Made by a program: the position numbers and the translations under genes | The notes under the pieces: generated by a model | What the model was told of the DNA's origin: nothing | Seen by the model: only the letters and a program-made list of their open reading frames with translations | The model's database searches: none | Source of the DNA: an uncultured Acidobacteriaceae bacterium | GTDB lineage: Bacteria; Acidobacteriota; Terriglobia; Terriglobales; Acidobacteriaceae | DNA: 64,000 nucleotides | NCBI GenBank assembly: GCA_963701685.1 | Contig: OY969625.1 | Span: 2,170,879-2,234,878 of the forward strand | Direction of reading: 5' to 3' | In this document: one piece after another, positions 107 to 52,109 of the stretch | Layout: each line of letters starts with the position of its first letter | Position numbering within the stretch: the first letter of the stretch is position 1

Positions 107-778
107 CTAAGCGGGGCGGGTGCCGGCGAGGACGGCGAAGCGGTTGTCTTTGAACCAGCAGTCGGCGTCGGTGAACCCAGCTTCGCGCATCCATTGGAGC
201 TGGTCTTCGACGGAGGCGCAGCGGTCGTCCTGCTGGCGGTAGAGGGAGTCGGCGATTTGCTGGGGCGTGGCGCCGCCTTCGCGGACTTGTTGGAGCCAGA
301 GGGATTTGTAGACGGCGTCGAGTGCGGGGGTGGGGCCGGCGACCTGTTCGGCGTTGACGAAGGTGCCGCCGGGGCGGAGGGCTCGGAAGATCTTGGCGAA
401 GAGGGCCTTCTTGGCGTCGTGGTCGATGTGGTGGATGGAGAGGGCGGAGACTATCGAATCGTAGGTGCCGTTGATGGGCGCGGTGGTGTAGTCGGTGACT
501 TCGAAGGTGACGTTGTTGTCGTTGGCGAAGCGTTCGCGCGCCTTGGCGATCATGGGTTCGGATAGGTCGGCGAGGACGATGTGGGCGCTGGGATACCACT
601 GGCGGACGAACTGGGAGAGGAGGCCGGTGCCGGCGCCGAGGTCGAGGATGTTTTTCGCGTCGTGGGCGATGAGGTCGGTGGAGCGGCGGTAGAAGGCGTC
701 GAAGCAGGGGATGAGCTTGGCGCGGTCGGCGTCGTAGGTGGGGGCGGTGATGTCGAAGATGGTTTGGGTGGTGGACAT
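107..778 (-). CDS. class I SAM-dependent methyltransferase
   Basis: 223-aa ORF with ATG at 778; SAM motif I ILDLGAGTGLL, acidic loop VLADLS, post-I motif LRPGGTF. Confidence 0.85.
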   Translation of the reverse strand: MSTTQTIFDITAPTYDADRAKLIPCFDAFYRRSTDLIAHDAKNILDLGAGTGLLSQFVRQWYPSAHIVLADLSEPMIAKARERFANDNNVTFEVTDYTTAPINGTYDSIVSALSIHHIDHDAKKALFAKIFRALRPGGTFVNAEQVAGPTPALDAVYKSLWLQQVREGGATPQQIADSLYRQQDDRCASVEDQLQWMREAGFTDADCWFKDNRFAVLAGTRPA

Positions 779-820: not shown

Positions 821-855
821 GTTGTGAGTTCTCGGTTGTCAGTTCTCAGTTGCTG
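821..855 (+). repeat. heptamer tandem array (GTTSTCM)x5, family B
   Basis: gttgtga gttctcg gttgtca gttctca gttgctg; the TGA stop (846-848) of the lyase gene lies inside the array. Confidence 0.9.
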
Positions 856-1937
856 GCGGGGCTGGCGGCGAGGATGGTGGTGTTTCCTCCGATGCGGGTG
901 TCGGTGGTGGGTTGTTGGAGGGCGGTGAGGATCGCGGGCGGGAGGCCTTCGGAGCCGAAGCGTGCGGTGTAGAAGTTGAAGGCGGCGAAGTCGTTGGCGT
1001 GGAAGTCAATTTTCTGGGTGTCGGAGGTGTAGGGCTTGACGAGAGAGGGGTCGGCGACGGCGCGGCCGTAGAAGAGGATGGCGTCGCGGAGGGTGCGGTG
1101 GTGGGACTGGTAGGCGTAGAGGTCGATGTTCTGGCGGGAGGCGAACTCGGCGATGAGGATAAGGGGTTCGAGTGCGAAGCCCTGGTAGTGGATGGCGTTT
1201 TCGTGACGCGCCATCTCGCGGGGGAAGGCGCCGGCGGGATCGATTTCCTTGATGGCGTCTTTGTAGGCGGTAATGCCGTAGTGGAAGAGCTTGTCGTCGG
1301 AGGCTACGACGCCGGTGGCGGTTGCTGCGAGGGCGCGCCAGTAGTGGTGGTTGTTCATGTCTTCGGGGCGCTCGAAGGTGAGGTCTTTGCGGGAGACTGC
1401 GTCGAGCCAGGTGATGACGCGGTGTAGTGCTGCGGGGTCGAGGGTTGGGTCGTTGACGAGGACGGAGGTGGTGATGGCGGCGGAGCCGAGGGTCCATTCG
1501 ACTTGATACCAGGATTGAGAGCGGGGCGGGTAGTCGAGGAGCGCGTGGGCCTGGGCCCAGGTGTCTAGTTGGGTTAGAGCGCAGGCGGATTCGGCATGAT
1601 TGTTGGTGGCCACGTATTGGTTCATTCCGGCCGTGATGCGGTGCTCGAAGGCTGTGTAGGGACGTGTGGCGATGGCTTCGGCGGGGTTGATGGGGCCGCT
1701 GGAGCCAGACATGTAGTGGTGCGGGATGTCCATGGGTGTTGGCGGCGCGGGGATTGCGGGCGTTGCAACGCAGGAGGGTAAGGACTCGATGGCCGCGAGA
1801 AGGAGAGGGTTGGTGGTGGTCGCGAGGGTGTGTTGGCGGGCGGGGACGTCGAGGAAGGCGGCGCCGGGGTTGAGGTGTTGGGAGTGCGTGAAGGGTGAGC
1901 AGGTGAGCGCGAGGAGCACTGCGAGGAGAAGGCGCAT
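846..1937 (-). CDS. secreted alginate lyase family protein (PL5/AlgL-like)
   Basis: N-terminal signal peptide MRLLLAVLLALTCSPFTHSQ; NNHHYW matches the AlgL NNHSYW catalytic motif. Confidence 0.75.
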   Translation of the reverse strand: MRLLLAVLLALTCSPFTHSQHLNPGAAFLDVPARQHTLATTTNPLLLAAIESLPSCVATPAIPAPPTPMDIPHHYMSGSSGPINPAEAIATRPYTAFEHRITAGMNQYVATNNHAESACALTQLDTWAQAHALLDYPPRSQSWYQVEWTLGSAAITTSVLVNDPTLDPAALHRVITWLDAVSRKDLTFERPEDMNNHHYWRALAATATGVVASDDKLFHYGITAYKDAIKEIDPAGAFPREMARHENAIHYQGFALEPLILIAEFASRQNIDLYAYQSHHRTLRDAILFYGRAVADPSLVKPYTSDTQKIDFHANDFAAFNFYTARFGSEGLPPAILTALQQPTTDTRIGGNTTILAASPASN

Positions 1938-23214: not shown

Positions 23215-23868
23215 TCAGAAGCCGTTGGCGAGAAGGTAGGCGGGGGTTAGCCAGTTCTCCTCAGAGTGAGCGCGCTGCGCTGCGGCGTATTTGGCGAGGA
23301 CATCGGTCTCGAGGTTTACAGGAGTGCCAGGCGTGAGGGTGTGGAGGTTGGTGGATTTGTATGTGTGCGGGATGATGGCGATTTCGATGCGCGGGAGGTC
23401 GAGGCGGGCGACGGTGAGGCTGATGCCGTCGATGGTGATGGAGCCTTGCGAGATGACTTGCGAGGTGAGCTGATCGGGGAGCTCGAGGGCGAGGCGCCAG
23501 TCGGTGGTGGCGAGGTCAGGGTGGAGTGGGACGATGGAGAGGAATTTTCCGGTGGCGTCGACGTGGCCCTGGACGACGTGACCGCCGAGGGGCGAGCCGG
23601 CGGGGGTGGGGAGCTCGAGATTTACGGTGGCTCCGATGGGAAGTGAGCCGAGGGTGGTGCGGGCGAGGGTTTCGCCGGCGAGGTCGGCTGCGAAGTGCGT
23701 GGGCTCAGGCAGGGGGATTGCAGTGAGGCAGACGCCGTTGACGGCGATGCTGTCGCCGGTGCGCCAGCGGCCTGCGAGTGCCGGGGCAGCGAGGACCAGG
23801 CGCGTGGCTCCTTCGGTTGGGGTGAGCGAGACTACGGTGCCGGTGGTTTCGATGAGTCCGGTGAACAT
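23215..23868 (-). CDS. ribE: riboflavin synthase
   Basis: MFTGLIETTGTV N-terminus and internal lumazine-binding repeat (GHVDATG). Confidence 0.9.
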   Translation of the reverse strand: MFTGLIETTGTVVSLTPTEGATRLVLAAPALAGRWRTGDSIAVNGVCLTAIPLPEPTHFAADLAGETLARTTLGSLPIGATVNLELPTPAGSPLGGHVVQGHVDATGKFLSIVPLHPDLATTDWRLALELPDQLTSQVISQGSITIDGISLTVARLDLPRIEIAIIPHTYKSTNLHTLTPGTPVNLETDVLAKYAAAQRAHSEENWLTPAYLLANGF

Positions 23869-23873
23869 AAGAA

Positions 23874-23908
23874 CAGGGTACAGGGTTCAGGGCCCAGGGG
23901 TCAGGGGA
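23874..23908 (+). repeat. G-rich heptamer array (CAGGGNN)x5, family A
   Basis: cagggta cagggtt cagggcc caggggt cagggga; fills the ribD-ribE gap and overlaps the ribD stop (23901-23903). Confidence 0.9.
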
Positions 23909-25085
23909 TGGCGGACCAGGGGTCGTGGAGGTAGCCGGTGATGCGGACGTCTTCGGCGTTGGGGGCTAGATCGGAGGGGAAGGCGGCGTGGGTGACTTGC
24001 GTTAAGCGTTGTTGGAGCGCGTAGGGGGAGTCGAAGTTGGAGGCGAAGGGTAAGGCGTCGAGGCCTAGTTCGCTTTCGGCGTAGTAGAGGACGAGCTTGT
24101 CGATGAGACCTGCGCGGAGGAGACTGCCGTTCAGGGCGGAGCCGGCTTCGACGAGGACGCTGAGAATGTTGCGATGGGCGAGGGCTGCGAGGGCGGCGTG
24201 GAGGTCGAGATGATGGTTGGCGGCAGGGACGCGGAGGACTTCTACGTTGCGAGAGCGGAGAGCGGACTCTCGTTCTGTGGATGCGTGGTGGGCGTCTTCG
24301 GAGCAGAGGATGAGGAGGTCGTTGGAGGCGGTGTTGACGAGAGTGGAGGCGAGGGGAATCCGGAGGGCGCCGTCAAGGATGACGCGAAGGAGTGGGCGGC
24401 GGCGCGGAAGGTTGGTGCGATCGGTGAGGGAAGGGTCGTCGGCGAGGACTGTGCCGATGCCGGTGAGGATGGCGCCGGAGGCGTGGCGGAGAAGTTGCGC
24501 GTCGGCGCGGGCTGCTGTGCCGGTGACCCAGTGAGGTGCGGTAGAGGTGCGGGTGGCGAGCGGTGGCGCTAGTTTGCCGTCGACTGAGAGCGCCGCTTTG
24601 AGGGTGACGAAGGGGCGATGATGCTGGATGGAGAACGCGAAGGCGTCGTTGAGATGGCGCGCTTGCTGGGCGATGGGATGAGTTGGGTCGAGGAGGAGAA
24701 CTTCTATGTTGGCGGCGCGGAGTTTGGCGAGGCCCTGGCCGCTGACGAGCGGGTTGGGATCTACGGTGGCTACAAGACAGCGAGCGATACCTGCGGCTAT
24801 AAGGGCGTCGGAGCACGGACCGGTGCGGCCGTGGTGGGCGCAGGGTTCGAGCGTGACGTAGGCGGTGGCGCCGTGAACGTTGTGGCCTAGAGCGGCAGCT
24901 TGTTTGAGCGCGGCAATCTCGGCGTGGTCGCGCGCGTCGTAGAAGTGAGCGCCTTCACCGATGAGTGCATTGTTGAGCGTGAGGACGCAACCAACGGTTG
25001 GGTTGGGGCTGGCGAAGGCTGCTGCTTCACGCGCGAGGTTGAGGGCGCGCGTCAGGTGGAGTTCGTCCTGAGATGTGAAGGACAT
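23901..25085 (-). CDS. ribD: bifunctional pyrimidine deaminase / uracil reductase
   Basis: Deaminase zinc motifs HAEIAAL and TLEPCAHHGRTGPC, plus a C-terminal reductase domain. Confidence 0.9.
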   Translation of the reverse strand: MSFTSQDELHLTRALNLAREAAAFASPNPTVGCVLTLNNALIGEGAHFYDARDHAEIAALKQAAALGHNVHGATAYVTLEPCAHHGRTGPCSDALIAAGIARCLVATVDPNPLVSGQGLAKLRAANIEVLLLDPTHPIAQQARHLNDAFAFSIQHHRPFVTLKAALSVDGKLAPPLATRTSTAPHWVTGTAARADAQLLRHASGAILTGIGTVLADDPSLTDRTNLPRRRPLLRVILDGALRIPLASTLVNTASNDLLILCSEDAHHASTERESALRSRNVEVLRVPAANHHLDLHAALAALAHRNILSVLVEAGSALNGSLLRAGLIDKLVLYYAESELGLDALPFASNFDSPYALQQRLTQVTHAAFPSDLAPNAEDVRITGYLHDPWSAIP

Positions 25086-30795: not shown

Positions 30796-31965
30796 ATGAT
30801 GCCTCGTATCGGGTTGGTCCGGCGGTTGTTTTTTGGTGCGCGTAACGGGCGGGCGTTTGGGTTGCGGGGTGCGCTGGCACTGGTCGGGATGGCGGCGATG
30901 GTGGGGCTATCGGGTTGCTACTGGGGGTATGGCTCGTACTACTACTACTGGGGTGGGGGGAATGGCGGGAACAATGCGCTGTGGGTGGCAAATGGGACCA
31001 ACGTGGTGGAGTTTTCGCCGTCGCAGCTGACGAACGGGGTAAGCGATCCTACGCCGCGGCGGACGATCAGCTCGAGTGTTTTTTCGTCGCCGCAGGGGGT
31101 GGTGTGGGATTACTACGGCGATCTGTGGGTGATTGATGGAGGGACGATGGCGAGTGGCGGGACGGTGGCGCCGGCGCTGTATGAGTTCACGCCGCGGCAG
31201 TTGTCGAACCTGTCGAGCAATAGCGCGCCTACGCCTGCGGTGACGATCTCTTCGTCGAGCTTTGTGTTTCCGCAGCAGGCGGCGTTTGATAACAACGGAA
31301 ACCTTTGGGTGAGCGATAACGGGAGCCAGGCGGTGTATGTGTTCTCGGCGAAGCAGCTGAGCACGACGGCGAGTGTGACGCCGGCGCAGACGATTACGTC
31401 TACGCCTACGTTCAACGGGCCGCTGGGAATTACGTTCGACTATCGAGGGAATTTGTATGTCGCGAATAACGGGACGACGACGATCTTTCAGTTCAGTGCT
31501 TCGAGTTTGCCGTTGGTGAATCCGTCGACTACTACGTCGGCGAGTACGGCGCTGACGCCGGCGGTGACGCTGAGCGATAACGGGTCGGGGTCGATCCAGG
31601 CACCGTGGGCGCTGGCGTTTGATGGCAATGGGAATCTGTGGTCGAGTAATGCGAATGCGCCGAATACGGTGGTGGAGTTTACGCGATCGCAGCTTGCTGC
31701 GAGCGGAAGTCCGACGCCGAATATTACGCTGGCGAGTGCGACGGTGAGCAACAACGCTACGCTGGTGGCTCCGAATGGAATTGCGTTTGATAACTACGGC
31801 GATTTGGCGGTGATGAGTTCGGCGGCACCGTTTGGCATGGCGGGATATGGGCCGTCGCAGTTGCGCACGAATCCGTCTAGTCCGCTTACTCCGGCAGTGT
31901 TTCTGGTGGGGAGTTCGACTACGCTGAATGCGCCGGCGGGAGATGCGTTTGGGCCTACGTACTAG
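30796..31965 (+). CDS. NHL-repeat beta-propeller lipoprotein
   Basis: Lipobox LSGC after a signal peptide. Repeated ...P.G.a.D..GNLWV.d / GNLYVAN blades characteristic of NHL repeats. Confidence 0.7.
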   Translation: MMPRIGLVRRLFFGARNGRAFGLRGALALVGMAAMVGLSGCYWGYGSYYYYWGGGNGGNNALWVANGTNVVEFSPSQLTNGVSDPTPRRTISSSVFSSPQGVVWDYYGDLWVIDGGTMASGGTVAPALYEFTPRQLSNLSSNSAPTPAVTISSSSFVFPQQAAFDNNGNLWVSDNGSQAVYVFSAKQLSTTASVTPAQTITSTPTFNGPLGITFDYRGNLYVANNGTTTIFQFSASSLPLVNPSTTTSASTALTPAVTLSDNGSGSIQAPWALAFDGNGNLWSSNANAPNTVVEFTRSQLAASGSPTPNITLASATVSNNATLVAPNGIAFDNYGDLAVMSSAAPFGMAGYGPSQLRTNPSSPLTPAVFLVGSSTTLNAPAGDAFGPTY

Positions 31966-31998
31966 GGCAGGATTAGGGAACAGGGATTAGGGATCAGG
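31964..31998 (+). repeat. G-rich heptamer array (AGGGNNN), family A
   Basis: tagggcaggattagggaacagggattagggatcagg; begins on the TAG stop of the NHL gene. Confidence 0.85.
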
Positions 31999-32434: not shown

Positions 32435-32436
32435 AA

Positions 32437-32510
32437 GGGTCCAGGGTCCAGGGTCCAGGGTCCAGGGTCCAGGGTCCAGGGTCCAAGGGTCCAAGGGTCC
32501 AAGGGTCCAG
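32437..32510 (+). repeat. longest G-rich array: (GGGTCCA)x6 then (AGGGTCCA)x3-4, family A
   Basis: Perfect heptamer copies followed by octamer copies; canonical G3N4 spacing. Confidence 0.95.
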
Positions 32511-39262: not shown

Positions 39263-39592
39263 TTACTGGATGCGGGTGGTTTGGGGTGGAGCGGAGAGGG
39301 TGGGGGTAGGTTTGGGGGTGGGGTGGCTGGTGACTACTACGCCGTTGGTTTCGAAGTGGGTGATGCGATGGTCGGTGGAGTGGCCTAGCATGACGGCCTT
39401 GCGGAGCATCTGGAGATGGCGGCGGGAGTCGTTGGCGAAGTGGCGGCTGATGGCGTGGTCGTAGTCGAGGACGAGGATGTAGGTGGCTTCGCACTTGGGG
39501 CAGTAGATGGGGTCCTCGAGCCAGCGGTGGAAGGCGGCGGGCGGGAGCGGGGCGGCGGGGTCGGTGCCGGAACGGATGGCGGCGATGATCAT
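39263..39592 (-). CDS. hypothetical protein (109 aa)
   Basis: ATG-initiated ORF with non-shadow composition (DPIYCPKCEATYILVLDYDHAISRHF); no family recognised. Confidence 0.45.
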   Translation of the reverse strand: MIIAAIRSGTDPAAPLPPAAFHRWLEDPIYCPKCEATYILVLDYDHAISRHFANDSRRHLQMLRKAVMLGHSTDHRITHFETNGVVVTSHPTPKPTPTLSAPPQTTRIQ

Positions 39593-39660
39593 AGGGGCAG
39601 GGATTAGGGATTAGGGATTAGGGGTTAGGGTTCAGGGCCCAGGGCCCAGGGTTTAGGGAA
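39593..39660 (+). repeat. family A heptamer array, about 10 units (GGATTAG to GGGCCCA variants)
   Basis: G-runs beginning at 39600, 39607 ... 39656 with exact 7-nt period; starts immediately next to the ATG of 39263..39592. Confidence 0.9.
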
Positions 39661-42020: not shown

Positions 42021-42052
42021 TGGAGGGGGAAAGACGGGCGCTTGATTTTGCT

Positions 42053-43415: not shown

Positions 43416-43988
43416 ATGAAGGCTGAAAAGACATCTACGGTTGAGTCACTGCTGGGGTTACTGAGTTTGGGGCCGATGTCGGGGTACGAGATGCGGCAGA
43501 TGATGGAGCGGTCGACCTCGAACTTCTGGACGGAGAGTTACGGGCAGATTTATCCGGCGCTGAAGCAGATGGTGAAGGACGGGCTGGCGACGGTGGAGGA
43601 GCAGAGCAAGGATGGGCGGGCGAAGAAGGTCTACAAGATCACGGGCGAGGGGGAGCGGCGGCTGAGGAAGTGGCTGGGGATGGAGACCAGGCCGCAGGTT
43701 CGTCGGAATGAGCTGGTGCTGAAGGTGTTTTTTGGGGACCAGGCGCTGAGGGGAGTGATTGCAGCGCAGGTGGTGGCGGAACGGGAGCGGTGCGAGAACG
43801 ATGTGGAACGGTTTGAGGCGTCGGTGCTGCGGATGGAGATGGAGCATGCGCGGCATCCGGCGATGCCGTACTGGAGGATGGCGGCGAGGTGCGGGATATT
43901 GCACGCGAAGGCGACGATTGCGTGGTGCGATGAGACGTTTGCGGAGTTGGAGAAGAGAGGGTTGGTGAGTAAGCCGACGTTTTACTAG
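43416..43988 (+). CDS. PadR family transcriptional regulator
   Basis: LLGLLSLGPMSGYEMRQMMERSTSNFWTESYGQIYPALKQMVKDGL is the PadR winged-helix signature. Confidence 0.85.
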   Translation: MKAEKTSTVESLLGLLSLGPMSGYEMRQMMERSTSNFWTESYGQIYPALKQMVKDGLATVEEQSKDGRAKKVYKITGEGERRLRKWLGMETRPQVRRNELVLKVFFGDQALRGVIAAQVVAERERCENDVERFEASVLRMEMEHARHPAMPYWRMAARCGILHAKATIAWCDETFAELEKRGLVSKPTFY

Positions 43989-44022
43989 TTGTCCGTTCTC
44001 AGTTCTCCGTTCTCAGTTGAAG
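43988..44022 (+). repeat. family B heptamer array (GTTSTCM)x5
   Basis: gttgtcc gttctca gttctcc gttctca gttgaag; the first G is the last base of the padR TAG stop. Confidence 0.9.
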
Positions 44023-44072: not shown

Positions 44073-44768
44073 ATGAGTGCTGATCCGGTTTGGATGAAGG
44101 GCTTGTTGACGGTGCATGTGGCGTGCGGGTTTGGGTCGTTTCTGCTGGCGCCGGTGGCGCTGTCTACGGCGAAGGGTGGTCCTGCGCATCGGCGGTGGGG
44201 GATGGTTTATTTGTGGTGCATGGGGGGCGTGGCGGCTACGGCGCTGCCGATGGCGCTGTATCGGCCGGTGCTGTTTCTGGCGATGGTGGCGGTGTTTAGC
44301 TTTTATGCGGCGTTCGCTGGGTATCGGGTACTGAAGCTTAAGGATTTGGCGCGGGGCGGGAGTGCGAAGCCGGTGGATTGGATTGCGGGCGTGCTGACGT
44401 TCTGCTCGAGTTTGTTGCTGGCGCTGATGGGGGCGTTTGATCCGAAGGCGATCCAGGGATATGGGATTGTGGCGATTGTGTTTGGGCTGCTGGGGATGCG
44501 GCTGTCGTTTATGCAGTTGAAGAGTTTTGTGTGGAAGCCGAAGGAGAAGATGTTCTGGTGGTACACGCACCTGGGAAATTTTATTGGCAGCTACATCGCA
44601 GCGTGGACGGCGTTCAGCGTGGTGACGCTGCCTACGGTGTTTGGGCAACACGTTTGGTTGTGGCTGTGGCCTACGGCGGTGGGGGTTCCGGCGATTGTGT
44701 TGACTACGGCTTATTACAAGCGGAAGTTTGCGCCGCGGGTGAAGACGACGGGGGTGGTGGCGGCGTAA
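44073..44768 (+). CDS. integral membrane protein (about 6 TM), unknown family, downstream of padR
   Basis: Start at MSADPVW (ATG at 44073) with GAGGAGG 5 nt upstream; hydrophobic throughout. Confidence 0.6.
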   Translation: MSADPVWMKGLLTVHVACGFGSFLLAPVALSTAKGGPAHRRWGMVYLWCMGGVAATALPMALYRPVLFLAMVAVFSFYAAFAGYRVLKLKDLARGGSAKPVDWIAGVLTFCSSLLLALMGAFDPKAIQGYGIVAIVFGLLGMRLSFMQLKSFVWKPKEKMFWWYTHLGNFIGSYIAAWTAFSVVTLPTVFGQHVWLWLWPTAVGVPAIVLTTAYYKRKFAPRVKTTGVVAA

Positions 44769-44775: not shown

Positions 44776-44817
44776 GCTCTCCGTTGTCCGTTCTCCGTTG
44801 TCCGTTCTCAGTTGGTG
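44776..44817 (+). repeat. family B heptamer array, 6 units
   Basis: gctctcc gttgtcc gttctcc gttgtcc gttctca gttggtg; lies between convergent genes and contains the TGA stop (44808-44810) of the minus-strand gene. Confidence 0.9.
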
Positions 44818-45545
44818 GGGGAGGCGTCGGGCTGGGATGTGGCGGAGGACTTGTGGGGCTTGTTGAGGCGAAGGTCTCGCGAGCTGCGGATCAGCTTCCA
44901 GATGGCGAAGGCCAGCGAGAGCAGGATGCTGGTCCAGATGATGATGAGGATGGTGGCGGCCCACTTGTCAGAGAAGTGCGACCAGAGGCGGAGAAAGGCG
45001 TGGCCGTAGCGGACGCCGATCCAGGCGGCGATGCAGTGGCGGATGAAGCGGCTGATGGTGAAGGCAGCCATGAATTTTTTGCGCGACATGTGCACGGCTC
45101 CGGCGGCGAGGACGAAGGGCGAGAGCGGCATGGGTGGAGGCAGAAGCGCGGGGAGCGAGACGGAGAGGATGGCGTGGTCTTCCATCCAGGAGGTGACACG
45201 GCCGAGGATGTTTTTTGGGACGTGTTTCTCGAGGAAGGCCATGCCGCCGGCCTGACCGACGGCGTGGGAGAAGAGGCCTCCGATGGCGGAGCCGATGGTG
45301 GCGAGGGCGACGAGGAGGAAGATGTTGGAGTGGGCGGCGGCGAAGACGATGAGGAGGATGTCGGTGACGCCGGGGATGGGGAGGGGGACGAAGGAGCTGT
45401 CGACTGCAGAGATGGGGAGCAGGCCGATGACGCCGAGGTGGCGGAAGAAATGGATGAAGCCGTGATGGGCGGCGTGCTGGGCGACAGGGGCCGCGACGTC
45501 CTGGAAGGCGAGGAGCGCGGCCGTTGGTGAGAAGGATATGCCCAT
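44808..45545 (-). CDS. YqaA/DedA-superfamily membrane protein
   Basis: GLLPISAVDSSFVPLPIPGVTDILLIV and LPPPMPLSPFVLAAGA resemble the SNARE-associated/DedA core. Confidence 0.7.
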   Translation of the reverse strand: MGISFSPTAALLAFQDVAAPVAQHAAHHGFIHFFRHLGVIGLLPISAVDSSFVPLPIPGVTDILLIVFAAAHSNIFLLVALATIGSAIGGLFSHAVGQAGGMAFLEKHVPKNILGRVTSWMEDHAILSVSLPALLPPPMPLSPFVLAAGAVHMSRKKFMAAFTISRFIRHCIAAWIGVRYGHAFLRLWSHFSDKWAATILIIIWTSILLSLAFAIWKLIRSSRDLRLNKPHKSSATSQPDASPTN

Positions 45546-46118: not shown

Positions 46119-49037
46119 ATGCGCAACCTCAGTGGTAATCAGATTCGGGAAGATTTTTTGCGGTTTTTTGAGACGAAGGGGCATCGGCGGGTGCACTCGT
46201 CTTCTTTGGTGCCGGCGAATGATCCTACGCTGCTGTTTACGAATGCGGGGATGAATCAGTTTAAGGATGTGTTTTTGGGGGCGGAGACGCGGGTGTATTC
46301 GCGGGCGGCGTCGAGCCAGAAGTGCGTGCGGGCGGGTGGGAAGCATAACGATCTGGAGAACGTTGGGTTTACGCGGCGGCACCATACGTTCTTTGAGATG
46401 CTGGGAAATTTTTCGTTTGGAGATTACTTCAAGAAGGATGCGATTGCGTTTGCGTGGGAGTTGCTGACTTCTCCGGATTGGTTTGGGATTGATAAGGACC
46501 GGCTGTATGTGACGGTGTTTGAGGGGAACGAAACTGTTCCGCGGGACGACGAGGCGGAGCGGCTTTGGATTGAGACGGGCGTGCCGAAGGAGCGGATCTT
46601 TGGCATGGGGATGAAGGATAACTTCTGGCAGATGGGCGATACCGGGCCTTGCGGGCCTTGCTCGGAGATTTTTTATGACCTGGGGTTGGCGGCTTCGGAG
46701 ACTGGCGAAGACAAGCCGTTTCCGGAAGACGATCAGCGGTACATGGAGATTTGGAATTTAGTGTTCATGCAGTTTGATCGGGCGAGTGATGGGGTGTTGA
46801 CTCCGCTACCGAAGCCTTCGATCGATACGGGCATGGGGCTGGAGCGCGTGGCTTGCGTGCTGCAGGGGAAGCTTTCGAATTATGAGAGTGATTTGTTTAC
46901 GCCGTTGATTCGGAGGGCGGTGGAGTTGACGGGGTTTGGTGGGGCGTTGTCCGATGTCCGTTCTCCGTTGTCCGTTGAAGAGCTGGCGGTGAGCGATGAG
47001 AAGGGGGCGGCTTCGCTGCGGATTATTGCGGACCATGCTCGGGCTTCTACGTTTTTGATTGCGGATGGGGTGGTGCCGAGCAATGAGGGGCGGGGGTATG
47101 TGCTGCGGAAGATTTTGCGGCGCGGGATTCGGCATGGGCGGCTGTTGGGGCAGGAGAAGCCGTTTATGCATGAGATGGTGCTGGCCGTGAGGGATGAGAT
47201 GGTGGCGGCGTATCCGGAGTTGGCGGAGTCGGCGGAGCGGGTCGCTAAGGTGGTGCTGGCGGAGGAGGAGCAGTTTGCTCGGGTGATGGATGTTGGTTCT
47301 AGAGAACTAAACAATGCTATCGACGAAGCTAAGTACAACGGCTACGTGAAAAATATGTGGGAGTTTTGTTTGAAAGATGGATTTGTGCCGCCCGCTGAAG
47401 ACTGGCTCTACCTTACACGTCAAATAAAATCCGGACGGCGTCAGGAACAGCTTGCAGCGGCATCACGTATCTTCCCAGTTGCCAAATATGGAAACAAATC
47501 CAGAGAACTACTGGACTCCATGTACTCAAATCCGATAGAGCTACCCGGCAAAACGGCGTTCACTCTTTACGAGACTTTCGGCTTGTCCAAAGACTTCATC
47601 GCAGATGCTGCGAGAGATGCAGGTCTCCTCTTCGATGATGAGGGATTCGAGCGGGCTAAGGAAGAGGAGCAGGCGCGGGCGAGGGCTAGTTGGAAGGGTG
47701 GGTCGTCGAAGTCGGCGGCGCCGGTTTATCGGGAGTTGGAGAAGACGGAGTTTGAGGGGTATACCGCGCTGCGTACCGATGGTGCGAAGGTGTTGGCGCT
47801 GGTGAAGGATGGCGTTGGCGTGACGGTGCTGCGGCCTGGGGATGTAGGTGAGGTGGTGTTGGATGCGACGAGTTTCTATGCGGACTCGGGCGGGCAGGTT
47901 GGGGATGTGGGGTGGTTGTATTCCGGGGACCATAACTCGGTGGTCGCCGATGTGACTGGTTGCAAGAAGCCGGTGCAGGGGGTGTTTGCGCACCAGGTGG
48001 TGGTGAAGCAGACGATTGCTGTTGGCGATGTGGTGGATGCTGTGGTGGATGGGGCGGTGCGGGCGGCGGTGATGCGGAATCATACGGGGACGCATTTGCT
48101 GCATGCGGCGTTGAGGCAGGTGCTGGGGACGCATGTGAAGCAGGCTGGGTCGTTGAATGACCGGTCGCGGCTGCGGTTTGATTTTTCGCACTTTGCGGGT
48201 GTGGCGGAGGAGGAGTTGGCGGAGATTGAGTCGATTGTGAATGCGCAGGTGTTAGCCAACACACCTGTAGTCACGATGGTGGATGTGCCGATTGATGTGG
48301 CCGTGCATGAGCTGGGAGCGATGGCGCTGTTTGGCGAGAAGTATGGCGATAAGGTGCGGGTGGTGAAGATTGGGGAGTTCTCGACGGAGCTTTGCGGTGG
48401 AACGCATACGGGGGCGACGGGGGAGATTGGGTTGGTGAAGCTGATGGGTGAGGGCGCGGTGGCTAGCGGCGTTCGGCGCGTGGAGGCGGTGACGGGGATG
48501 GGGTCGCTGGGGGTGTTTCGGCGGGATGCGGATGTGGCGAAGGTTGCCGGGCAGTTTGTTGGGGGTGGAGATGTGAGTGGGGAGGCGCTGCGGGCTCGGG
48601 TGGCGAGCCAGGAAGAGGAGATGAAGAAGCTAAGGCGGGAGCTGGAGGCGCTGCGGATGAAGTCGGCTACGGCGGCTACTGCGGATGCGGCGGCTTCGGC
48701 TGTGGAGGTTAAGGGGGTTAAGGTTTTGAGTCAGCGGGTGGATGCGCTCGATAAAAGCCAGATGCGGAATTTGGTGGATGAGCTGCGCGGGAAGTTGGGG
48801 TCGGGGGTTGTGGTGCTGGGGGCGGCTTCTTCGGACGGAAAGGTTAGTTTGATTGTTGGGGTTAGTAAGGACCTGACCGGGCGGGTGCAGGCGGGGAAGG
48901 TTGTTGGCGCGATTGCCGCGAAGGTTGGGGGGAAGGGTGGTGGGAGGCCGGATTTGGCGGAGGCTGGCGGGACGGATGTAGCCGGGTTGGATGCGGCGCT
49001 GGCGGGGGCGAGGGATGTGGTGGAGGAGATGCTGTAA
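46119..49037 (+). CDS. alaS: alanine--tRNA ligase (with two in-frame insertions)
   Basis: [45 protein letters not shown], editing-domain HTGTHLLH, C-terminal [15 protein letters not shown]. At 972 aa it is about 90 aa longer than usual. Confidence 0.95.
46946..46980 (+). repeat. family B heptamer array inside alaS
   Basis: gttgtcc gatgtcc gttctcc gttgtcc gttgaag; encodes [13 protein letters not shown]. Confidence 0.9.
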
Positions 49038-49420
49038 AGGCAGCTACTAGCTGCTAGCTTCTGGCAAAGGCAAAGGACAACACGGGTCCCTGCACTGCGC
49101 TGTGCTTCGGTCGAGATGACGCTGCGGCGGAGAGATGCAGATTCCTTCGCTTCGCTGCGGAATGACAGCCAGAAATGCAAGGGCAACGGCAAGAGCAACG
49201 GCAACAACAACTGCAAAAGAAGAAGCAGATTCCCAGAGGGAATGACAGACAGAAAGGCAAGGGCGACGAGAACAGCAAGGGCGATAACAACAGCGAGGGC
49301 GACTACAGGGGTCCTTCCCTTCGTTCAGGATGACGGAGGGGGTGGTCGGGATGACGGTGCGGTTGGCTGGGATGACGGACTGGTTGGTCGGATTGGTGGA
49401 GTGGGCTGGATTGGGGCGGT
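49038..49420 (+). repeat. largest family D composite block (several modules in tandem)
   Basis: ggcaaaggcaaagg; tcgagatgac; gcagattccttcgcttcgctgcggaatgacag; (ggcaac)n; agaagcagattcccagagggaatgacagacagaaagg; ttcaggatgacgg; gggatgacgg x2. Confidence 0.85.
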
Positions 49421-49494: not shown

Positions 49495-52023
49495 ATGGGT
49501 CTCCTTATTCAGGGTGGGGTTGGAAGGAGCTGCGGCTGGTTGGGCGCGGTGGTGCTGGTGGGGATGTGGTGCGGGGGCGTGGGGTCGGTGCAGGTGCGGG
49601 CGGAGACTGCGTCTGATATTGCGGCGAAGCCTGGGGTGGGTTGGGATGCGGCGGTTGCGGCGCGGGTGGCGTTTGAGGCGGAGCCTCGGCGGACGCATAC
49701 TAGGGAAGAGTATGCGCGGGTGATGAATGGGTTCCGCGCGATCTATCATTCGGATCCGGATCATGCGCATGCGGCGGAGGCTGTGGCGCAGGTGGCTGAG
49801 CTGCTGAATGAGATGGGGCGCGAGTTTGGCGATAAGAAGAGCGTCCACGACGCGGCGGGGCAGTATGAGTATTTAGCGAAGGCGTATCCGGGCGACAAGC
49901 TGGCTCCGGAGGCGCTGGTGAAGGCGCTGGCGTTGCTGGGGCCGGCGGATGCGGATGAGGCGGCGAAGGTTAAGGCGCAGCTGGTGCAGGATTATCCGCG
50001 GGAGGCTCGGAAGGCTGGGGTGGAGGTGGCGGCTGGTCGGGGATCCGTGAATCCCACTTATGACGGTGAGACTGTCATGAATGGGGCACCCGGGACTGTG
50101 GCTCGCACACCCACATCTCAGAAGCGAGATGTGGGGCACCCGGCGTCGTTCAGCAATTCCACCGATGACGGTGAGGCGGTCAAGGATGGGGCACACAGTA
50201 ATGGATCTTCGGCGGCTGGAACTGCGGGTGTCTCTGTTGCGCTGCGTTCCGGTCGGGAGGACAGTGGTGGCGCGGGTCGGATTGAGCCGGTCGCGCAGGA
50301 GGATTTGACTTCGGGGCGGTTGACTCCGGATCTGGTGGGGACGACGAACGGGAGGAAGACGGGGCCGCTGGCGGTGGTGACGGGGATTCGGCACTGGTCG
50401 ACGGCTAGTTATACGCGGGTGGCGATTGACTTGAATGTGGCTCCGGGAGAAGAGGTGAAGTATGAGGCGGCGCGGGTGGAGAATCCGGATCGCATCTTCT
50501 TTGACCTGGGGCATGCGCGGCTGGCGCCGGAGATGGTGGGGAAGAGCTTCAATGTGACCGATGATGGATTTCTGACGCGGGTGCGGGCGGCGCAGTTTTC
50601 CGGTGAGGTGACGCGGGTGGTGCTGGATGTGCATCACGTGGCGGAGTACTCGGCGTTTCTGCTGCCGAATCCTTATCGGCTGATTATTGATATTCATGGG
50701 AATGCGGGGCAGCGAGTTAGCGAGTTAGCGAGTCAGCGGGGTGAGGGTTCAGGGCTCAGGGCCCAGGGTCCAGAAGACGCGAGAGGCGAGGGTTCAGGGT
50801 CCAAGGTCCAGGGTTCAGGGGTGGCGGGACAGCCTGCAGCGGTGGAAGTTTCTAGTTTGCCGCCGATGCCGGTTACGGATGGAAGCGCTGGCTTTGGGTT
50901 GCCGGCGCGGAGTTTGGATCGGGTAGGCGAGGGGAAGACGGTGGCGCCGCCTCGGGTGGTGATCGCGTCGAAGCCTACGGCGGCCCGGCCGGTGCCGAAT
51001 ACGGTGGTGAAGACTGCTGCGGATACCAGTAGCGAGGTTGCGGAGGTTAGTCGGCAGCCGGGGATGGTGGAGGCTACGCGGCGGCCTACGTCGAAGCCGA
51101 TTGCAGAGACGAGTGGGGATGCGGCCGTTGATGTTGCGAGTGACGCGCATTATGTGCCGCGGACGCGGAGGAGTTCGTCGTCCCACCTTAGCGACGATGG
51201 GACCTTCGCGAAGATGGGGCGCCCGGGTGCTTCGGTGAAGGGGGAGCCGGCGGAAGCGCCGCCTCCTACGGCGGATGGGGAGACGTCGCTGGTGCGGGCG
51301 CTGGGGCTGAAGATTGGGCGGATTGTGATTGATGCGGGGCATGGTGGGCATGACTCGGGTACGCTGGGCGCGGGTGGGATTGAAGAGAAGGATGTGGTGC
51401 TGGATGTGGCGCTGAGGCTGGGCAAGCTGCTGCATGACCGGTTGGGCGCGGAGGTTGTTTATACACGCGATGACGATACGTTTGTGCCGTTGGAGACTCG
51501 GACGGCGATTGCAAATAAGGCGCAGGCGGATCTGTTTATCAGCGTGCATGCGAACAGCTCGTCGGATCCTACGGTGAAGGGGGTGGAAGTTTACTACCTG
51601 AACTTTACGAGCGATCCGGAGGCGATGACGGTGGCTAGTCGCGAGAACGCCGTGTCGACGGAGAGCGTGCATGAGTTGAGTGACCTGGTGAAGAAGATTG
51701 CGCTGAAGGACAAGATTGATGAGAGCAAGGAGCTGGCGGCGGATGTGGATGCGTCGTTGTATGCGGGGCTGCGGCGGGGGAATCCTGAGCTGAGGAATCG
51801 CGGGGTGAAGAAGGCTCCGTTTGTGGTGCTGATTGGAGCGAATATGCCTTCGATTCTGGCGGAGATTAGTTTCGTGACGAATCCGGATACGGCGGAGAAG
51901 CTGGAGACGCCGGAGTATCGGGAGCGGGTGGCGGAGAGTTTGTATAAGGGGATTGCGGTGTATGCGCAGGGGATCAATGGGGCGCGGCCGCGGGTGGCTA
52001 CGGTGGAGCAGGCGGAGAGGTGA
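49495..52023 (+). CDS. N-acetylmuramoyl-L-alanine amidase (AmiC-like: TPR-like N-domain, AMIN domain, amidase_3 domain)
   Basis: AMIN: VTGIRHWSTASYTRVAIDL...RLIIDIHG. Catalytic: IVIDAGHGGHDSG, DLFISVHANS, ILAEISFVTNP. The linkers are built from repeats. Confidence 0.85.
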   Translation: MGLLIQGGVGRSCGWLGAVVLVGMWCGGVGSVQVRAETASDIAAKPGVGWDAAVAARVAFEAEPRRTHTREEYARVMNGFRAIYHSDPDHAHAAEAVAQVAELLNEMGREFGDKKSVHDAAGQYEYLAKAYPGDKLAPEALVKALALLGPADADEAAKVKAQLVQDYPREARKAGVEVAAGRGSVNPTYDGETVMNGAPGTVARTPTSQKRDVGHPASFSNSTDDGEAVKDGAHSNGSSAAGTAGVSVALRSGREDSGGAGRIEPVAQEDLTSGRLTPDLVGTTNGRKTGPLAVVTGIRHWSTASYTRVAIDLNVAPGEEVKYEAARVENPDRIFFDLGHARLAPEMVGKSFNVTDDGFLTRVRAAQFSGEVTRVVLDVHHVAEYSAFLLPNPYRLIIDIHGNAGQRVSELASQRGEGSGLRAQGPEDARGEGSGSKVQGSGVAGQPAAVEVSSLPPMPVTDGSAGFGLPARSLDRVGEGKTVAPPRVVIASKPTAARPVPNTVVKTAADTSSEVAEVSRQPGMVEATRRPTSKPIAETSGDAAVDVASDAHYVPRTRRSSSSHLSDDGTFAKMGRPGASVKGEPAEAPPPTADGETSLVRALGLKIGRIVIDAGHGGHDSGTLGAGGIEEKDVVLDVALRLGKLLHDRLGAEVVYTRDDDTFVPLETRTAIANKAQADLFISVHANSSSDPTVKGVEVYYLNFTSDPEAMTVASRENAVSTESVHELSDLVKKIALKDKIDESKELAADVDASLYAGLRRGNPELRNRGVKKAPFVVLIGANMPSILAEISFVTNPDTAEKLETPEYRERVAESLYKGIAVYAQGINGARPRVATVEQAER
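50052..50196 (+). repeat. three family E hairpin elements inside the amidase gene
   Basis: 50052-50092, 50109-50141 (perfect 10-bp stem CCCACATCTC/GAGATGTGGG) and 50157-50196; they encode NPTYDGETVMNGAPG, TSQKRDVGHP and STDDGEAVKDGAH. Confidence 0.8.
50712..50822 (+). repeat. octamer (GCGAGTTA) array plus two family A heptamer arrays inside the amidase gene
   Basis: gcgagtta gcgagtta gcgagtca; agggttc agggctc agggccc agggtcc (50744-50772); agggttc agggtcc aaggtcc agggttc agggg (50789-50822). Confidence 0.9.
51181..51226 (+). repeat. family E hairpin element inside the amidase gene
   Basis: tcccaccttagcgacgatgggaccttcgcgaagatggggcgcccgg; encodes SHLSDDGTFAKMGRPG. Confidence 0.8.
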
Positions 52024-52026: not shown

Positions 52027-52054
52027 GTTCTCAGTTGTCCATTCTCAGTTGTCA
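52027..52054 (+). repeat. family B heptamer array, 4 units
   Basis: gttctca gttgtcc attctca gttgtca; starts 3 nt after the amidase TGA. Confidence 0.9.
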
Positions 52055-52109
52055 GGAAAGGCCGGTGGGCGTGCTACCGTTTGGGGGGTTGGTGTAGTCT
52101 TTCGCTTGT

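What the first reader, a model, noticed from the sequence alone, without database searches (positions are those of the whole stretch)
821..855. GTTSTCM heptamer arrays placed on stop codons of genes on both strands
Six arrays of 4-6 units occur at 821-855, 43988-44022, 44776-44817, 46946-46980, 52027-52054 and 55132-55166. They alternate GTTGTCC / GTTCTCM, giving a 14-nt super-period. Four of them touch a stop codon. The TGA of 846..1937 and the TGA of 44808..45545 are both the AAC-TGA read from the minus strand of a unit. The padR TAG supplies the first G of its array. The amidase TGA lies 3 nt upstream of its array. The units are direct repeats, not hairpins, so they are not classical REP elements or intrinsic terminators. 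The only described analogue I know is the heptameric STRR repeat of heterocystous cyanobacteria. I know of no description for this phylum.
Basis: partly seen in the sequence, partly recalled or inferred. Interest (0 to 1): 0.65.

Follow-up and report, generated by a model that had tools for sequence, protein, structure and literature searches.

The report
Seven-base repeat arrays beside stop codons
The short runs of a 7-base repeat (GTTSTCM) are real and lie right after genes or in frame inside them in this soil acidobacterium. They are a local family of an already known kind of bacterial simple-sequence repeat, and their contact with stop codons follows mostly from their own sequence and from where extra DNA is tolerated.

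Summary
All six GTTSTCM arrays exist, all on the + strand, and none is expected by chance. Four touch stop codons as described. The other two lie in frame inside essential or housekeeping genes: alanyl-tRNA synthetase (AlaRS) and methylmalonate-semialdehyde dehydrogenase (MMSDH). They are one family among at least 13 period-7 arrays in the window, which comes from an Acidobacteriaceae genome. Period-7 arrays dominate the short tandem repeats of Acidobacteriota loci. The same unit, read on the other strand as (G/C)AAC(T/G)GA, is common in soil and peat metagenomes.

Stop adjacency is statistically real: 17 of 38 intergenic arrays against 5.2 expected. It has ordinary causes. The complement of the A-variant carries TGA, and a 7-nt period puts it in all three frames. 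Only the stop-proximal part of a spacer is free DNA. Coding copies keep the frame by changing just the in-frame TGA to GGA.

The arrays are unstructured. They are gained and lost between congeners and vary in copy number at orthologous sites. The closest described relatives are the TAACTGA repeats of Beggiatoaceae and cyanobacteria, STRR, and the Xanthomonas/Nostoc heptamers.

Verdict: a real feature and a new member of a known kind. A dedicated function is not shown.

The parts
821..852 (+). GTTSTCM array, 4 units + GTTG. It lies in the 67-nt spacer between alginate-lyase-family gene 846..1937(-) and methyltransferase 107..778(-). The lyase TGA (846-848) is the TCA of the last full unit.
43988..44019 (+). 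GTTSTCM array, 4 units + GTTG. It starts on the G of the padR TAG (43416..43988+). It ends 53 nt before the ATG (44073) of a conserved membrane ORF that has its own GGAGG.
44776..44814 (+). GTTSTCM array, 5 units + GTTG. It fills the 39-nt spacer between convergent genes. It starts 7 nt after the TAA of 44073..44768(+) and supplies the TGA (44808-44810) of VTT-domain gene 44808..45545(-). Only the unit carrying that stop is an A-variant.
46946..46977 (+). GTTSTCM array, 4 units + GTTG, all C-variants. It lies in frame inside AlaRS 46119..49037(+) and encodes ..[12 protein letters not shown].. in a hypervariable loop between ELTG and ASLRIIADH.
52027..52055 (+). GTTSTCM array, 4 units. It starts 3 nt after the TGA of N-acetylmuramoyl-L-alanine amidase 49495..52023(+) and ends 54 nt before the DUF6599 gene 52110..53276(+).
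55131..55165 (+). GTTSTCM array, 4 units + GTTG(TTG), all C-variants. It lies in frame inside MMSDH 54717..56318(-). On the coding strand it reads CAACGGA CAACGGA GAACGGA CAACGGA CAACGGC and encodes [12 protein letters not shown], an insertion of about 10 residues relative to solved homologues.
23871..23907 (+). Another heptamer family (minus strand CCCTGAN). It overlaps the TGA of ribD 23901..25085(-) and fills the 32-nt spacer up to 2 nt before the ribE start (23215..23868-), so it lies inside an operon.
31970..31998 (+). Heptamer array GGATTAG/GGAACAG/GGATCAG starting 4 nt after the TAG of NHL-repeat gene 30796..31965(+).
49042..49062 (+). AGCTNCT x3 array starting 4 nt after the AlaRS TAA. 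It is self-complementary and forms the head of a composite post-stop repeat. It is conserved in the congener L201.
50742..50820 (+). AGGGYYC heptamer arrays in frame in the linker of the amidase gene, between the AMIN and Amidase_3 domains. The Granulicella locus L004 has similar arrays in its amidase.
39598..39659 (+). AGGGATT/AGGGYYC arrays 4 nt upstream of the start of 39263..39592(-). This is the start-adjacent case.
32436..32510 (+). (AGGGTCC)x10.3, the longest heptamer array in the window, in a region without a supported gene.

Best explanation
The arrays are heptanucleotide simple-sequence repeats of one family. The unit is GTTSTCM on the + strand, which reads (G/C)AAC(T/G)GA on the other strand. 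They belong to the 'long SSR, 5-11 nt' class that is over-represented in some bacteria and dominates here.

Inferred origin: they arise and are continually resized and homogenised by strand slippage in 7- or 14-nt steps, possibly helped by template switching between copies. They persist only where about 30 extra bases do no harm.

Shown: they occupy four kinds of place.
- Immediately after stop codons.
- In short spacers inside operons.
- Between convergent genes.
- In frame in surface loops or linkers of proteins.

The contact with stop codons has two ordinary causes.
1. Shown: the complement of the A-variant contains TGA, and a 7-nt period puts TGA in all three frames within three units. Any gene running into the array from that side must therefore end in its first one to three units. 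Where the array is coding, exactly the in-frame TGA is replaced (GGA, which is the C-variant, or CGA/TCA).
2. Partly shown, partly inferred: in compact spacers, the only dispensable DNA lies between the stop codon and the control region of the next gene. The pyrimidine-rich sense (GUUCUCC, which resembles the anti-Shine-Dalgarno sequence) is avoided next to start codons, so copies in that sense end up against the stop.
For: - Period specificity: 15 period-7 arrays in the window against 0.6 in shuffles, and against 3, 2 and 0 arrays for periods 6, 8 and 9. Acidobacteriota loci hold 60 period-7 arrays in 918 kb, against 16, 8 and 6 for periods 6, 8 and 9. Loci from other phyla hold 7 in 574 kb.
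- SSR-like length spectrum: 4 to 29 units, falling roughly geometrically, in over 100 metagenome arrays.
- Copy number differs at orthologous sites: 29 and 4.5 units against 3 and 6 in L105/L154; 4 against 7 in L129/L134.
- Turnover between congeners. L201 is 86-91% identical in nucleotides and syntenic. It lacks the arrays at the 44776 and 52027 sites, carries a palindromic element in the AlaRS loop instead, and keeps the MMSDH array with different unit variants.
- No structure.
- Stop adjacency: 17 of 38 intergenic arrays lie within 8 nt of a stop, against 5.2 +/- 1.6 expected. In metagenomes, 29% follow a stop within -3..+8 nt. A further 21% contain the stop of an ORF entering from the other side, exactly at the TCA positions -3, -10 and -17. 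The null is 2.2%. The flanks show no consensus beyond partial units.
- In-frame rule: in six MMSDH orthologues the DNA stays 7-periodic, and only the in-frame units lack TGA.
- Insertions fall in variable loops (the model has pLDDT below 50 at residues 379-396).
- Orientation filter: a start codon follows within 15 nt in 30 of 107 arrays read as TGASAAC, but in only 4 of 107 read as GTTSTCM.
- The same logic is published for TAACTGA (PMC4679880).
Against: - Slippage itself was not observed. No same-species population or long-read data could be laid on the window.
- Some arrays persist at orthologous sites across deep divergence: the MMSDH loop across many genera, the dnaJ-like/rsmE spacer at 71% nucleotide identity, and the AlaRS loop in the window and L057. 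That is long for neutral DNA in bacteria, so these may be regenerated or selected.
- Five of the six arrays have the same size (4 units + GTTG). The AlaRS and MMSDH copies are 31/33 identical. Both look more like copies of a discrete element than like independent slippage.
- The strong orientation asymmetry near start codons could reflect function rather than tolerance.
Confidence: 0.55

Rival explanations
1. The arrays are functional cis-elements at gene boundaries. In this view, a single-strand nucleic-acid-binding protein that contacts about 7 nt per domain (cold-shock-domain or S1-like, as proposed for TAACTGA) coats the repeat. Alternatively, the repeat acts as an unstructured pad. Either way it would end translation in all frames and set up re-initiation or control of the next gene.
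For: - Arrays are strongly and specifically placed at ORF ends.
- Arrays in the TGASAAC sense lie directly before start codons in 30 of 107 cases, against 4 of 107 in the opposite sense. This is the same bias as TAACTGA in 'Maribeggiatoa'.
- The ribD-ribE spacer is made entirely of such an array and has no Shine-Dalgarno sequence.
- The array pair between the dnaJ-like gene and rsmE is conserved at 71% nucleotide identity.
- The arrays are less structured than shuffled sequence.
- CspB binds heptamer repeats with one protein per heptamer (cited in PMC4679880).
Against: - In the window the arrays have one chromosomal orientation whatever the direction of the gene. The RNA is therefore GUUSUCM after + genes and KGASAAC after - genes.
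- In metagenomes both senses follow stops about equally often, 29% against 21%.
- The arrays are absent at the same stop codons in a congener.
- Copies sit inside enzymes, where no boundary function applies.
- No candidate binding protein or expression data were obtained.
Confidence: 0.25
2. The arrays are copies of a small mobile or copy-paste element about 32 nt long (4 units + GTTG). It would spread by template switching, gene conversion or an unknown enzyme into permissive sites, in the manner of the very small dispersed repeats of Nostoc or the in-frame palindromic elements of Rickettsia.
For: - Five of the six arrays have the same size.
- The AlaRS and MMSDH copies are 31/33 identical, with the same heterogeneous unit order.
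- Whole spacers are replaced between congeners without remnants.
- The same AlaRS loop hosts a heptamer array in two genomes and a dispersed palindromic element in a third. The site therefore receives insertions.
Against: - Copy number in the wider family is broadly distributed, from 4 to 29 units.
- There are no conserved termini, target-site duplication or flank motif.
- Identical heterogeneous 28-mers recur in unrelated metagenome contexts at a rate compatible with the few possible variants.
- Orthologous MMSDH arrays differ by unit-level changes typical of in-place evolution, and they are anchored on the native AAC GGC codons.
- At the VTT stop, L057 has a single unit GTTCTCT and L201 has CAACTAG. 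These look like proto-units.
Confidence: 0.12
3. The arrays are hairpin-less transcription termination signals, for example pyrimidine-rich, G-poor Rho-loading sites placed just after the stop codon.
For: - They lie immediately 3' of stops.
- The GUUCUCM sense is pyrimidine-rich, G-poor and unstructured.
- Canonical intrinsic terminators near these genes are no more frequent than in shuffled sequence (18 found against 12.8 +/- 4.8 expected).
Against: - Half of the stop-adjacent copies present the purine-rich complement to the transcript.
- At 28-39 nt they are short for a Rho-loading site.
- One related array sits inside the ribD-ribE operon 2 nt before the next start.
- Arrays read as TGASAAC commonly lie right before start codons.
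- Two copies are inside genes.
Confidence: 0.05
4. The arrays are assembly or sequencing artefacts.
For: None found. Short tandem repeats can in principle be mis-assembled.
Against: - The coding copies keep long conserved ORFs in frame.
- Homologous arrays occur at the same sites in independent assemblies: L057, L201, L202-L205 and many protein records.
- The unit occurs in over 100 unrelated metagenome contigs.
Confidence: 0.01

Closest known systems
TAACTGA direct repeats of marine Beggiatoaceae, cyanobacteria and some Bacteroidetes (MacGregor 2015, PMC4679880)
   Same: - Tandem heptamers with 2-6 copies in most sets.
- The unit differs at one position: TAACTGA against (G/C)AACTGA.
- The forward sense gives stop codons in all three frames, so repeats overlap the ends of upstream ORFs.
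- Reverse-sense copies occur inside ORFs at peripheral positions.
- Forward copies lie just before start codons. In my metagenome set this holds for 30 of 107 arrays against 4 of 107 in the other sense.
- Function is unknown.
   Different: - The first base is G or C, not T, so there is no TAA in the unit.
- A second variant, (G/C)AACGGA, lacks any stop. It is used in coding copies.
- The host phylum is different (Acidobacteriota).
- In this window the intergenic copies are stop-proximal and start-distal. They share one chromosomal orientation rather than pointing at start codons.
- MacGregor found CAACTGA and GAACTGA almost never repeated in her genome.
STRR, the short tandemly repeated repetitive heptamers of heterocystous cyanobacteria (Mazel et al. 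1990; units recalled from memory as CCCCAGT, TTGGTCA, CAACAGT; existence cited in PMC4692102)
   Same: - Several families of tandem heptamers in one genome, mostly intergenic, with no known function.
- One STRR unit as I recall it (CAACAGT) matches CAACGGA/CAACTGA at 5 of 7 positions.
   Different: - Different phylum and different units.
- To my knowledge, STRR were not described as abutting stop codons or as in-frame insertions in housekeeping enzymes. This rests on memory and was not tested here.
G-rich GGGAATC / GGGGAYT heptamer repeats of Xanthomonas and Nostoc (Rehm et al. 2015, PMC4692102)
   Same: - Heptamer SSRs, about 90% intergenic.
- Much closer to the end of the upstream ORF (mean 28 nt) than to the next ORF (160 nt).
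- Modal size of four units.
- Variable between related species.
- Inverted pairs occur. Such pairs are also seen in Acidobacteriota loci L014, L046, L051, L053 and L058.
- The window's AGGGNNN arrays resemble this type.
   Different: GTTSTCM has no G-tracts and cannot form a three-tetrad quadruplex. In the window there are no inverted pairs.
Long simple sequence repeats with 5-11 nt units (Mrazek, Guo and Shah 2007; known here only through its description in PMC4679880 and PMC4692102)
   Same: - Heptanucleotide units are the most abundant class.
- They are found in free-living bacteria with large genomes.
- Polymerase slippage favouring 7 nt was proposed as the cause.
   Different: This is a statistical class, not a sequence family. 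According to the description I could read, Acidobacteria were not among the ten genomes richest in 5-11 nt repeats. The paper itself was not available.
Rickettsia palindromic elements inserted in frame in protein genes (Ogata et al. 2000; from memory)
   Same: Short repeated DNA tolerated in frame in surface regions of essential proteins.
   Different: Those elements are palindromic and 100-150 bp long. The arrays here are 32-nt direct repeats. A true palindromic element does occupy the AlaRS loop of L201 and the amidase ORF of the window.

Membership tests
Heptanucleotide long SSR (5-11 nt unit class) | Head-to-tail copies of a 5-11 nt unit, longer and more frequent than composition predicts | tested here: met
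   Six arrays against 0 in shuffles. Period 7 gives 15 arrays against 0.6 in shuffles.
Heptanucleotide long SSR (5-11 nt unit class) | Copy number varies between related genomes at the same locus, which is the signature of slippage | tested here: met
   L105 against L154 and L129 against L134. MMSDH and AlaRS arrays differ between the window, L057 and L201-L205. Same-species variation was not testable.
TAACTGA direct repeats (MacGregor 2015) | The unit is TAACTGA | tested here: not met
   The units are (G/C)AACTGA and (G/C)AACGGA. They differ from TAACTGA at one or two positions.
TAACTGA direct repeats (MacGregor 2015) | The forward sense carries stops in all three frames and overlaps the ends of upstream ORFs | tested here: met
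   Seen for the lyase and VTT genes in the window. In metagenome arrays, stops fall at -3, -10 and -17.
TAACTGA direct repeats (MacGregor 2015) | Most copies point towards, and end within a few nt of, a start codon | tested here: inconclusive
   This holds for the wider family in metagenomes: 30 of 107 against 4 of 107. None of the four intergenic GTTSTCM arrays of the window is start-adjacent; they lie 42-55 nt away or between convergent genes.
STRR of heterocystous cyanobacteria | Tandem heptamers with units CCCCAGT / TTGGTCA / CAACAGT in Nostocales genomes | tested here: not met
   The period is the same. The host is Acidobacteriaceae and the units differ. The unit list is from memory.
G-quadruplex-forming heptamer repeats (GGGAATC type) | At least four G3 tracts separated by short loops | tested here: not met
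   GTTSTCM and its complement have no G3 tract. The separate AGGGNNN arrays of the window do have them.
REP/BIME-type palindromic elements | Imperfect palindrome able to form a stable hairpin | tested here: not met
   Folds are no better than shuffles, with z from -0.6 to +1.6.
Intrinsic (Rho-independent) terminator | G+C-rich hairpin followed by a T-run | tested here: not met
   No terminator-like site overlaps the five arrays inside the scanned stretch 40000-59000. The array at 821 was not scanned, but its fold shows no stable hairpin within the array.
Contingency (phase-variation) SSR | The repeat lies in the promoter or 5' coding part of a surface or virulence gene, so that unit changes switch expression | tested here: not met
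   The arrays lie after stops or in loops of AlaRS, MMSDH and an amidase linker. A one-unit change in AlaRS would destroy an essential gene.

The most novel reading that the evidence does not exclude
Arrays of xAACTGA-type heptamers, and perhaps heptamer arrays in general, are a cross-phylum gene-boundary signal read in a 7-nt register by a single-strand-binding protein such as a cold-shock-domain or S1-like protein. In the stop-containing sense they would end translation in every frame and hand ribosomes to the next start codon. In this reading, the arrays are kept by selection and spread by copying rather than by chance slippage. It would explain their persistence at orthologous sites, their modal size of four units, and the orientation bias before start codons in Acidobacteriota, Beggiatoaceae and cyanobacteria alike.
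Probability: 0.12. Interest if true: 0.75.

Novelty: new member of a known kind. Interest (0 to 1): 0.4.

Why it matters
Acidobacteriota are among the most abundant soil bacteria, and their genome architecture is little studied.

This work shows three things:
- Heptamer repeats are the dominant short tandem repeat in many Acidobacteriota genomes.
- The repeats crowd the first bases after stop codons.
- They have been built in frame into conserved enzymes (AlaRS, MMSDH, a cell-wall amidase), with a simple rule: only the in-frame TGA is changed.

These findings have practical uses:
- They give annotators a reason for odd C-termini and for loop insertions.
- They give a handle for strain typing.
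- They add a third, independent phylum-level case to the unexplained preference of bacteria for 7-nt repeats.

If the boundary placement turns out to be functional, it would be a widespread and so far uncharacterised signal. If not, it is a clean natural example of how selection filters where junk DNA can survive.

Tried and rejected
- **Exact look-up of a window protein** to find the source genome: not on record (a first attempt failed).
- **Sequencing runs:** only 4-12% of k-mers were shared with peat, permafrost or soil metagenomes and metatranscriptomes. Laying contigs gave a noisy mix of relatives. It hints at forms lacking the 44776 region and part of the AlaRS loop, but nothing usable for copy number or 3' ends.
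- **First home-made gene caller:** it failed on + strand genes because of the extreme strand skew. It was replaced by a strand-specific version. Gene starts remain approximate, so start-codon statistics are rough.
- **Hairpin or terminator reading:** rejected.
- **Backup-stop reading** (extra stops after the real stop): rejected. Stop-free and stop-containing senses follow stops about equally often, and the padR and amidase arrays carry no stop in the sense strand.
- **Phase variation:** rejected on gene identity and position.
- **Conserved insertion site or terminal motif:** none beyond partial units.
- **Orientation tied to local GC skew in metagenome loci:** no consistent sign on reading the per-locus list; this was not tested statistically.
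- **Identity of heterogeneous unit orders as proof of copying:** inconclusive.
- **AlphaFold model of MMSDH:** only mediocre (mean pLDDT 62). It is used only as weak support for a loop.
- **Mrazek et al. 2007:** the paper could not be read.
Full report
**Observation**

A search for three GTTSTCM units with up to two mismatches gives 14 overlapping matches. All are on the + strand, and none occurs in 100 dinucleotide-preserving shuffles. Tandem Repeats Finder (TRF) reports five of the six. It prefers a 14-nt period for 821, 43988 and 44776, and a 7-nt period for 46946 and 55131. The array at 52027 appears only in my own period-14 scan. Five of the six arrays are four units plus GTTG.

The stated contacts with stop codons are correct:
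- The TGA of 846..1937(-) and the TGA of 44808..45545(-) are each the AAC-TGA of the first unit met on the minus strand.
- The padR TAG gives the first G of its array.
- The amidase TGA is 3 nt upstream of its array.

Pfam assigns 46119..49037(+) to alanyl-tRNA synthetase (AlaRS) and 54717..56318(-) to an aldehyde dehydrogenase. The best solved relatives of the latter are methylmalonate-semialdehyde dehydrogenases (MMSDH), with E-values down to about 1e-201.

Array 46946 lies in frame inside AlaRS and encodes [12 protein letters not shown]. Array 55131 lies in frame inside MMSDH and encodes [12 protein letters not shown]. Array 44776 fills the 39-nt spacer between two convergent genes and touches both stops.

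The window also holds other period-7 arrays:
- CCCTGAN units overlap the ribD TGA and fill the ribD-ribE spacer.
- A GGATYAG-type array starts 4 nt after the stop of an NHL-repeat gene.
- AGCTNCT x3 starts 4 nt after the AlaRS stop.
- AGGGYYC arrays lie in the amidase linker.
- AGGGATT lies 4 nt before a start codon.
- There are also (AGGGTCC)10 and (TTCCAGC)5.

Period 7 is specifically enriched: 15 arrays against 0.6 in shuffles, compared with 3, 2 and 0 arrays for periods 6, 8 and 9.

**Organism and distribution**

The AlaRS gene finds its nearest relatives, at 75-79% amino-acid identity, in Acidobacteriaceae: Granulicella, Bryocella elongata and several metagenome-assembled genomes. A congeneric genome, L201, was reached through the closest MMSDH homologue. 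It is 86-91% identical in nucleotides and syntenic.

Across 49 Acidobacteriota loci (918 kb) there are 60 period-7 arrays, against 16, 8 and 6 for periods 6, 8 and 9. Thirty loci from other phyla (574 kb) have 7 (lists). Units differ from genome to genome. Several genomes have inverted pairs of arrays (L014, L046, L051, L053, L058).

Their GC content ranges from 34 to 71% and their lengths from 4 to 29 units. Counts fall off roughly geometrically with length.

**Is the stop-codon association real?**

I called genes with a strand-specific codon model. I then re-placed each intergenic array uniformly within its own spacer. Seventeen of 38 arrays lie within 8 nt of a stop codon, against 5.2 +/- 1.6 expected; the maximum over 2000 trials was 11.

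For the three window GTTSTCM arrays that do not fill their spacer, a conservative joint probability is 0.008.

In the metagenome set:
- 29% of arrays start -3..+8 nt after the stop of an ORF of at least 100 codons on the GTTSTCM strand.
- 21% contain the stop of an ORF entering from the other side, exactly at the TCA positions -3, -10 and -17.
- The rate at random positions is 2.2%.

The flanks show no conserved motif beyond partial units (CA...GT).

**Why stops?**

Read on the other strand, the A-variant unit is (G/C)AACTGA. A 7-nt period moves TGA through all three frames in three units. An ORF entering from that side must therefore end within the array. This explains the lyase, VTT and ribD cases and the -3/-10/-17 pattern. 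The same point is made for TAACTGA repeats in 'Maribeggiatoa' (PMC4679880).

The coding copies show the converse rule. In six MMSDH orthologues the loop DNA is still 7-periodic with lineage-specific units. Only the units whose TGA would be in frame read GGA, CGA, TCA or GGC. In L201 one unit of four is changed.

For genes on the GTTSTCM strand the array carries no stop, so another cause is needed. A start codon opening an ORF of at least 80 codons follows within 15 nt in 30 of 107 arrays read as TGASAAC. It does so in only 4 of 107 read as GTTSTCM, against 10% at random positions. The pyrimidine-rich sense, which contains CUCC, is thus avoided next to ribosome-binding sites; the reason I give for this is an inference. 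In co-directional spacers such copies sit at the stop-proximal end, as at padR and the amidase, with the next start 53-55 nt away.

**Evidence on origin and turnover**

The arrays and their flanks fold no better than shuffles, with z-scores from -0.6 to +1.6. No hairpin-plus-T-run lies beside the five arrays in the scanned stretch.

Compared with L201:
- The arrays at 44776 and 52027 are absent. Their spacers hold an AGCTTCT array plus a palindromic element, and a roughly 200-nt composite repeat, respectively.
- The AlaRS loop holds a palindromic element instead of heptamers.
- The AGCTNCT array after AlaRS is conserved.
- The MMSDH array is kept, but with different variants and a 12-nt length difference.

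L057 (79% AlaRS identity) has GTTCTCA GTTCTCA GTTGTCA GTTCTCA at the same AlaRS loop, and L010 has an ACCAGGG array in another AlaRS loop. L057 lacks the membrane ORF 44073..44768 and both arrays that flank it. It shows a single GTTCTCT unit at the VTT stop.

Many Acidobacteriaceae MMSDH homologues carry the 7-residue-periodic insert (TTDNGEL, TTENGQL, TTYNLEP and others). Others, at similar identity, have the basal PKG-EGFF loop. Solved structures align with a gap there. A mediocre model gives pLDDT below 50 for residues 379-396.

L105 and L154 are 71% identical in nucleotides. Both keep an inverted pair of GTTCTCA arrays between a dnaJ-like stop and the rsmE start, but with 29 and 4.5 units against 3 and 6.

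Taken together:
- The arrays are labile in length and variant.
- They are often gained or lost.
- They are sometimes long-lived at a site.
- They are tolerated only in permissive places.

**Most likely explanation (confidence 0.55)**

These are heptanucleotide simple-sequence repeats, made and remodelled by slippage. They are filtered by selection to the first bases after stops, to operon and convergent spacers, and to protein loops. Their own sequence accounts for the overlap with TGA.

Steps shown: period specificity, placement statistics, the in-frame rule, lack of structure, and turnover.

Steps inferred: slippage as the generating process, and anti-Shine-Dalgarno interference as the reason for the orientation filter.

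**Rivals**

- A functional boundary element bound in a 7-nt register (0.25). This is supported by the start-codon orientation bias and by persistence at some sites. It is weakened because orientation in the window follows the chromosome rather than the gene, because arrays are absent in the congener, and because some copies are coding.
- A copy-paste mini-element (0.12). This is supported by the uniform 32-nt size and by the 31/33 identity of the AlaRS and MMSDH copies. It is weakened by the broad length spectrum, the absence of termini, and the presence of proto-units at empty sites.
- A hairpin-less terminator (0.05).
- An artefact (0.01).

**Comparison with the literature**

Heptamers are reported as the most abundant long-SSR class in many bacteria, with polymerase slippage proposed as the cause. 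This comes from Mrazek et al. 2007 as described in PMC4679880 and PMC4692102.

The GGGAATC repeats of Xanthomonas are about 90% intergenic. They lie on average 28 nt from the upstream ORF against 160 nt from the downstream one. They are modally four units long, sometimes occur in inverted pairs, and have no known function.

TAACTGA repeats differ from the present unit by one base and share the stop-overlap logic and the start-codon orientation. Full-text searches found no paper on such repeats in Acidobacteria and no other mention of these units.

I therefore file the finding as a new member of a known kind. It is a real and statistically solid feature of an understudied phylum, with a neat coding rule, but without evidence of a new mechanism.

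Noticed in passing
window 1-64000; also L057 and L201: Extreme and uniform strand asymmetry. GC skew is +0.31 over the whole window (G 25971, C 13741) with T>A, whatever the gene direction. About two thirds of the called genes lie on the C-rich strand. L057 shows +0.31, L201 +0.35, and Granulicella and Bryocella loci +0.20 to +0.24. All heptamer arrays of the window are written in one orientation.
   Followed up: partly
window 50116-50141; L201 19435-19460 and 21176-21201; L002 12938-12963; L153 9557-9582: A dispersed palindromic element (about CCCAYRTCTCAAARNSGAGAYNTGGGSCACCC) lies in frame inside the amidase ORF of the window and inside the AlaRS loop of the congener L201. It also lies in the spacer next to the VTT gene in L201 and after AlaRS in Bryocella. 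This is reminiscent of the in-frame palindromic elements of Rickettsia.
   Followed up: partly
window 49042-49310 and 54621-54635; L057, L004, L201 after the AlaRS and amidase stops: A composite post-stop repeat. Its parts are an AGCTNCT array, then GGCAAA/GCAAMR hexamer or 12-mer arrays, then a hairpin of the type AGATTCC...GGAATGACA. Two near-identical hairpins, ATTCCCNNNGGGAAT followed by CTGCTTCTTC, lie on the minus strand at 49229-49243 and 54621-54635. Relatives carry versions of it directly after stop codons.
   Followed up: partly
window 50711-50738 and 17145-17180; L003 about 3763-3810: Octamer arrays AGCGAGTT/AGCGAGTC. In L003, six copies start directly after the AlaRS stop codon, so the post-stop position also collects 8-nt repeats.
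   Followed up: no
window 32436-32510, 39598-39659, 50742-50820, 31970-31998, 23871-23907: AGGGNNN heptamer arrays with G3 tracts every 7 nt, up to 10 copies, all with the G-rich strand on +. They meet the sequence requirement for G-quadruplexes, like the Xanthomonas and Nostoc repeats.
   Followed up: partly
window 30292-30336 and 30552-30588: An Acido-Lenti-1 RNA motif (39.7 bits against a gathering score of 37) lies in an 850-nt region without a supported gene. A perfect (TTCCAGC)x5.3 array lies 215 nt downstream.
   Followed up: no
window 44073-44768: A conserved 231-residue membrane ORF without a Pfam match is flanked on both sides by GTTSTCM arrays. It is present in L201. It is absent, together with both arrays, from the padR-VTT spacer of L057.
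   Followed up: partly
window 17343-17394: A perfect bidirectional hairpin (GACAGCGACCGAAGCTCGGTCGCTGTC) lies between convergent rsmE-like and dnaJ-like genes. Relatives L105 and L154 have these genes co-directional, separated by an inverted pair of GTTCTCA arrays.
   Followed up: partly
window 59591-63601: Adjacent Ku (62579..63601) and LigD-type ligase/primase-polymerase (59591..62569) genes, identified by synteny with L201. These are the non-homologous end-joining pair. No link to the repeats was tested.
   Followed up: no
window 23869-23900: The ribD-ribE intercistronic spacer consists only of C-rich heptamer units and has no purine-rich Shine-Dalgarno sequence before the ribE ATG.
   Followed up: no
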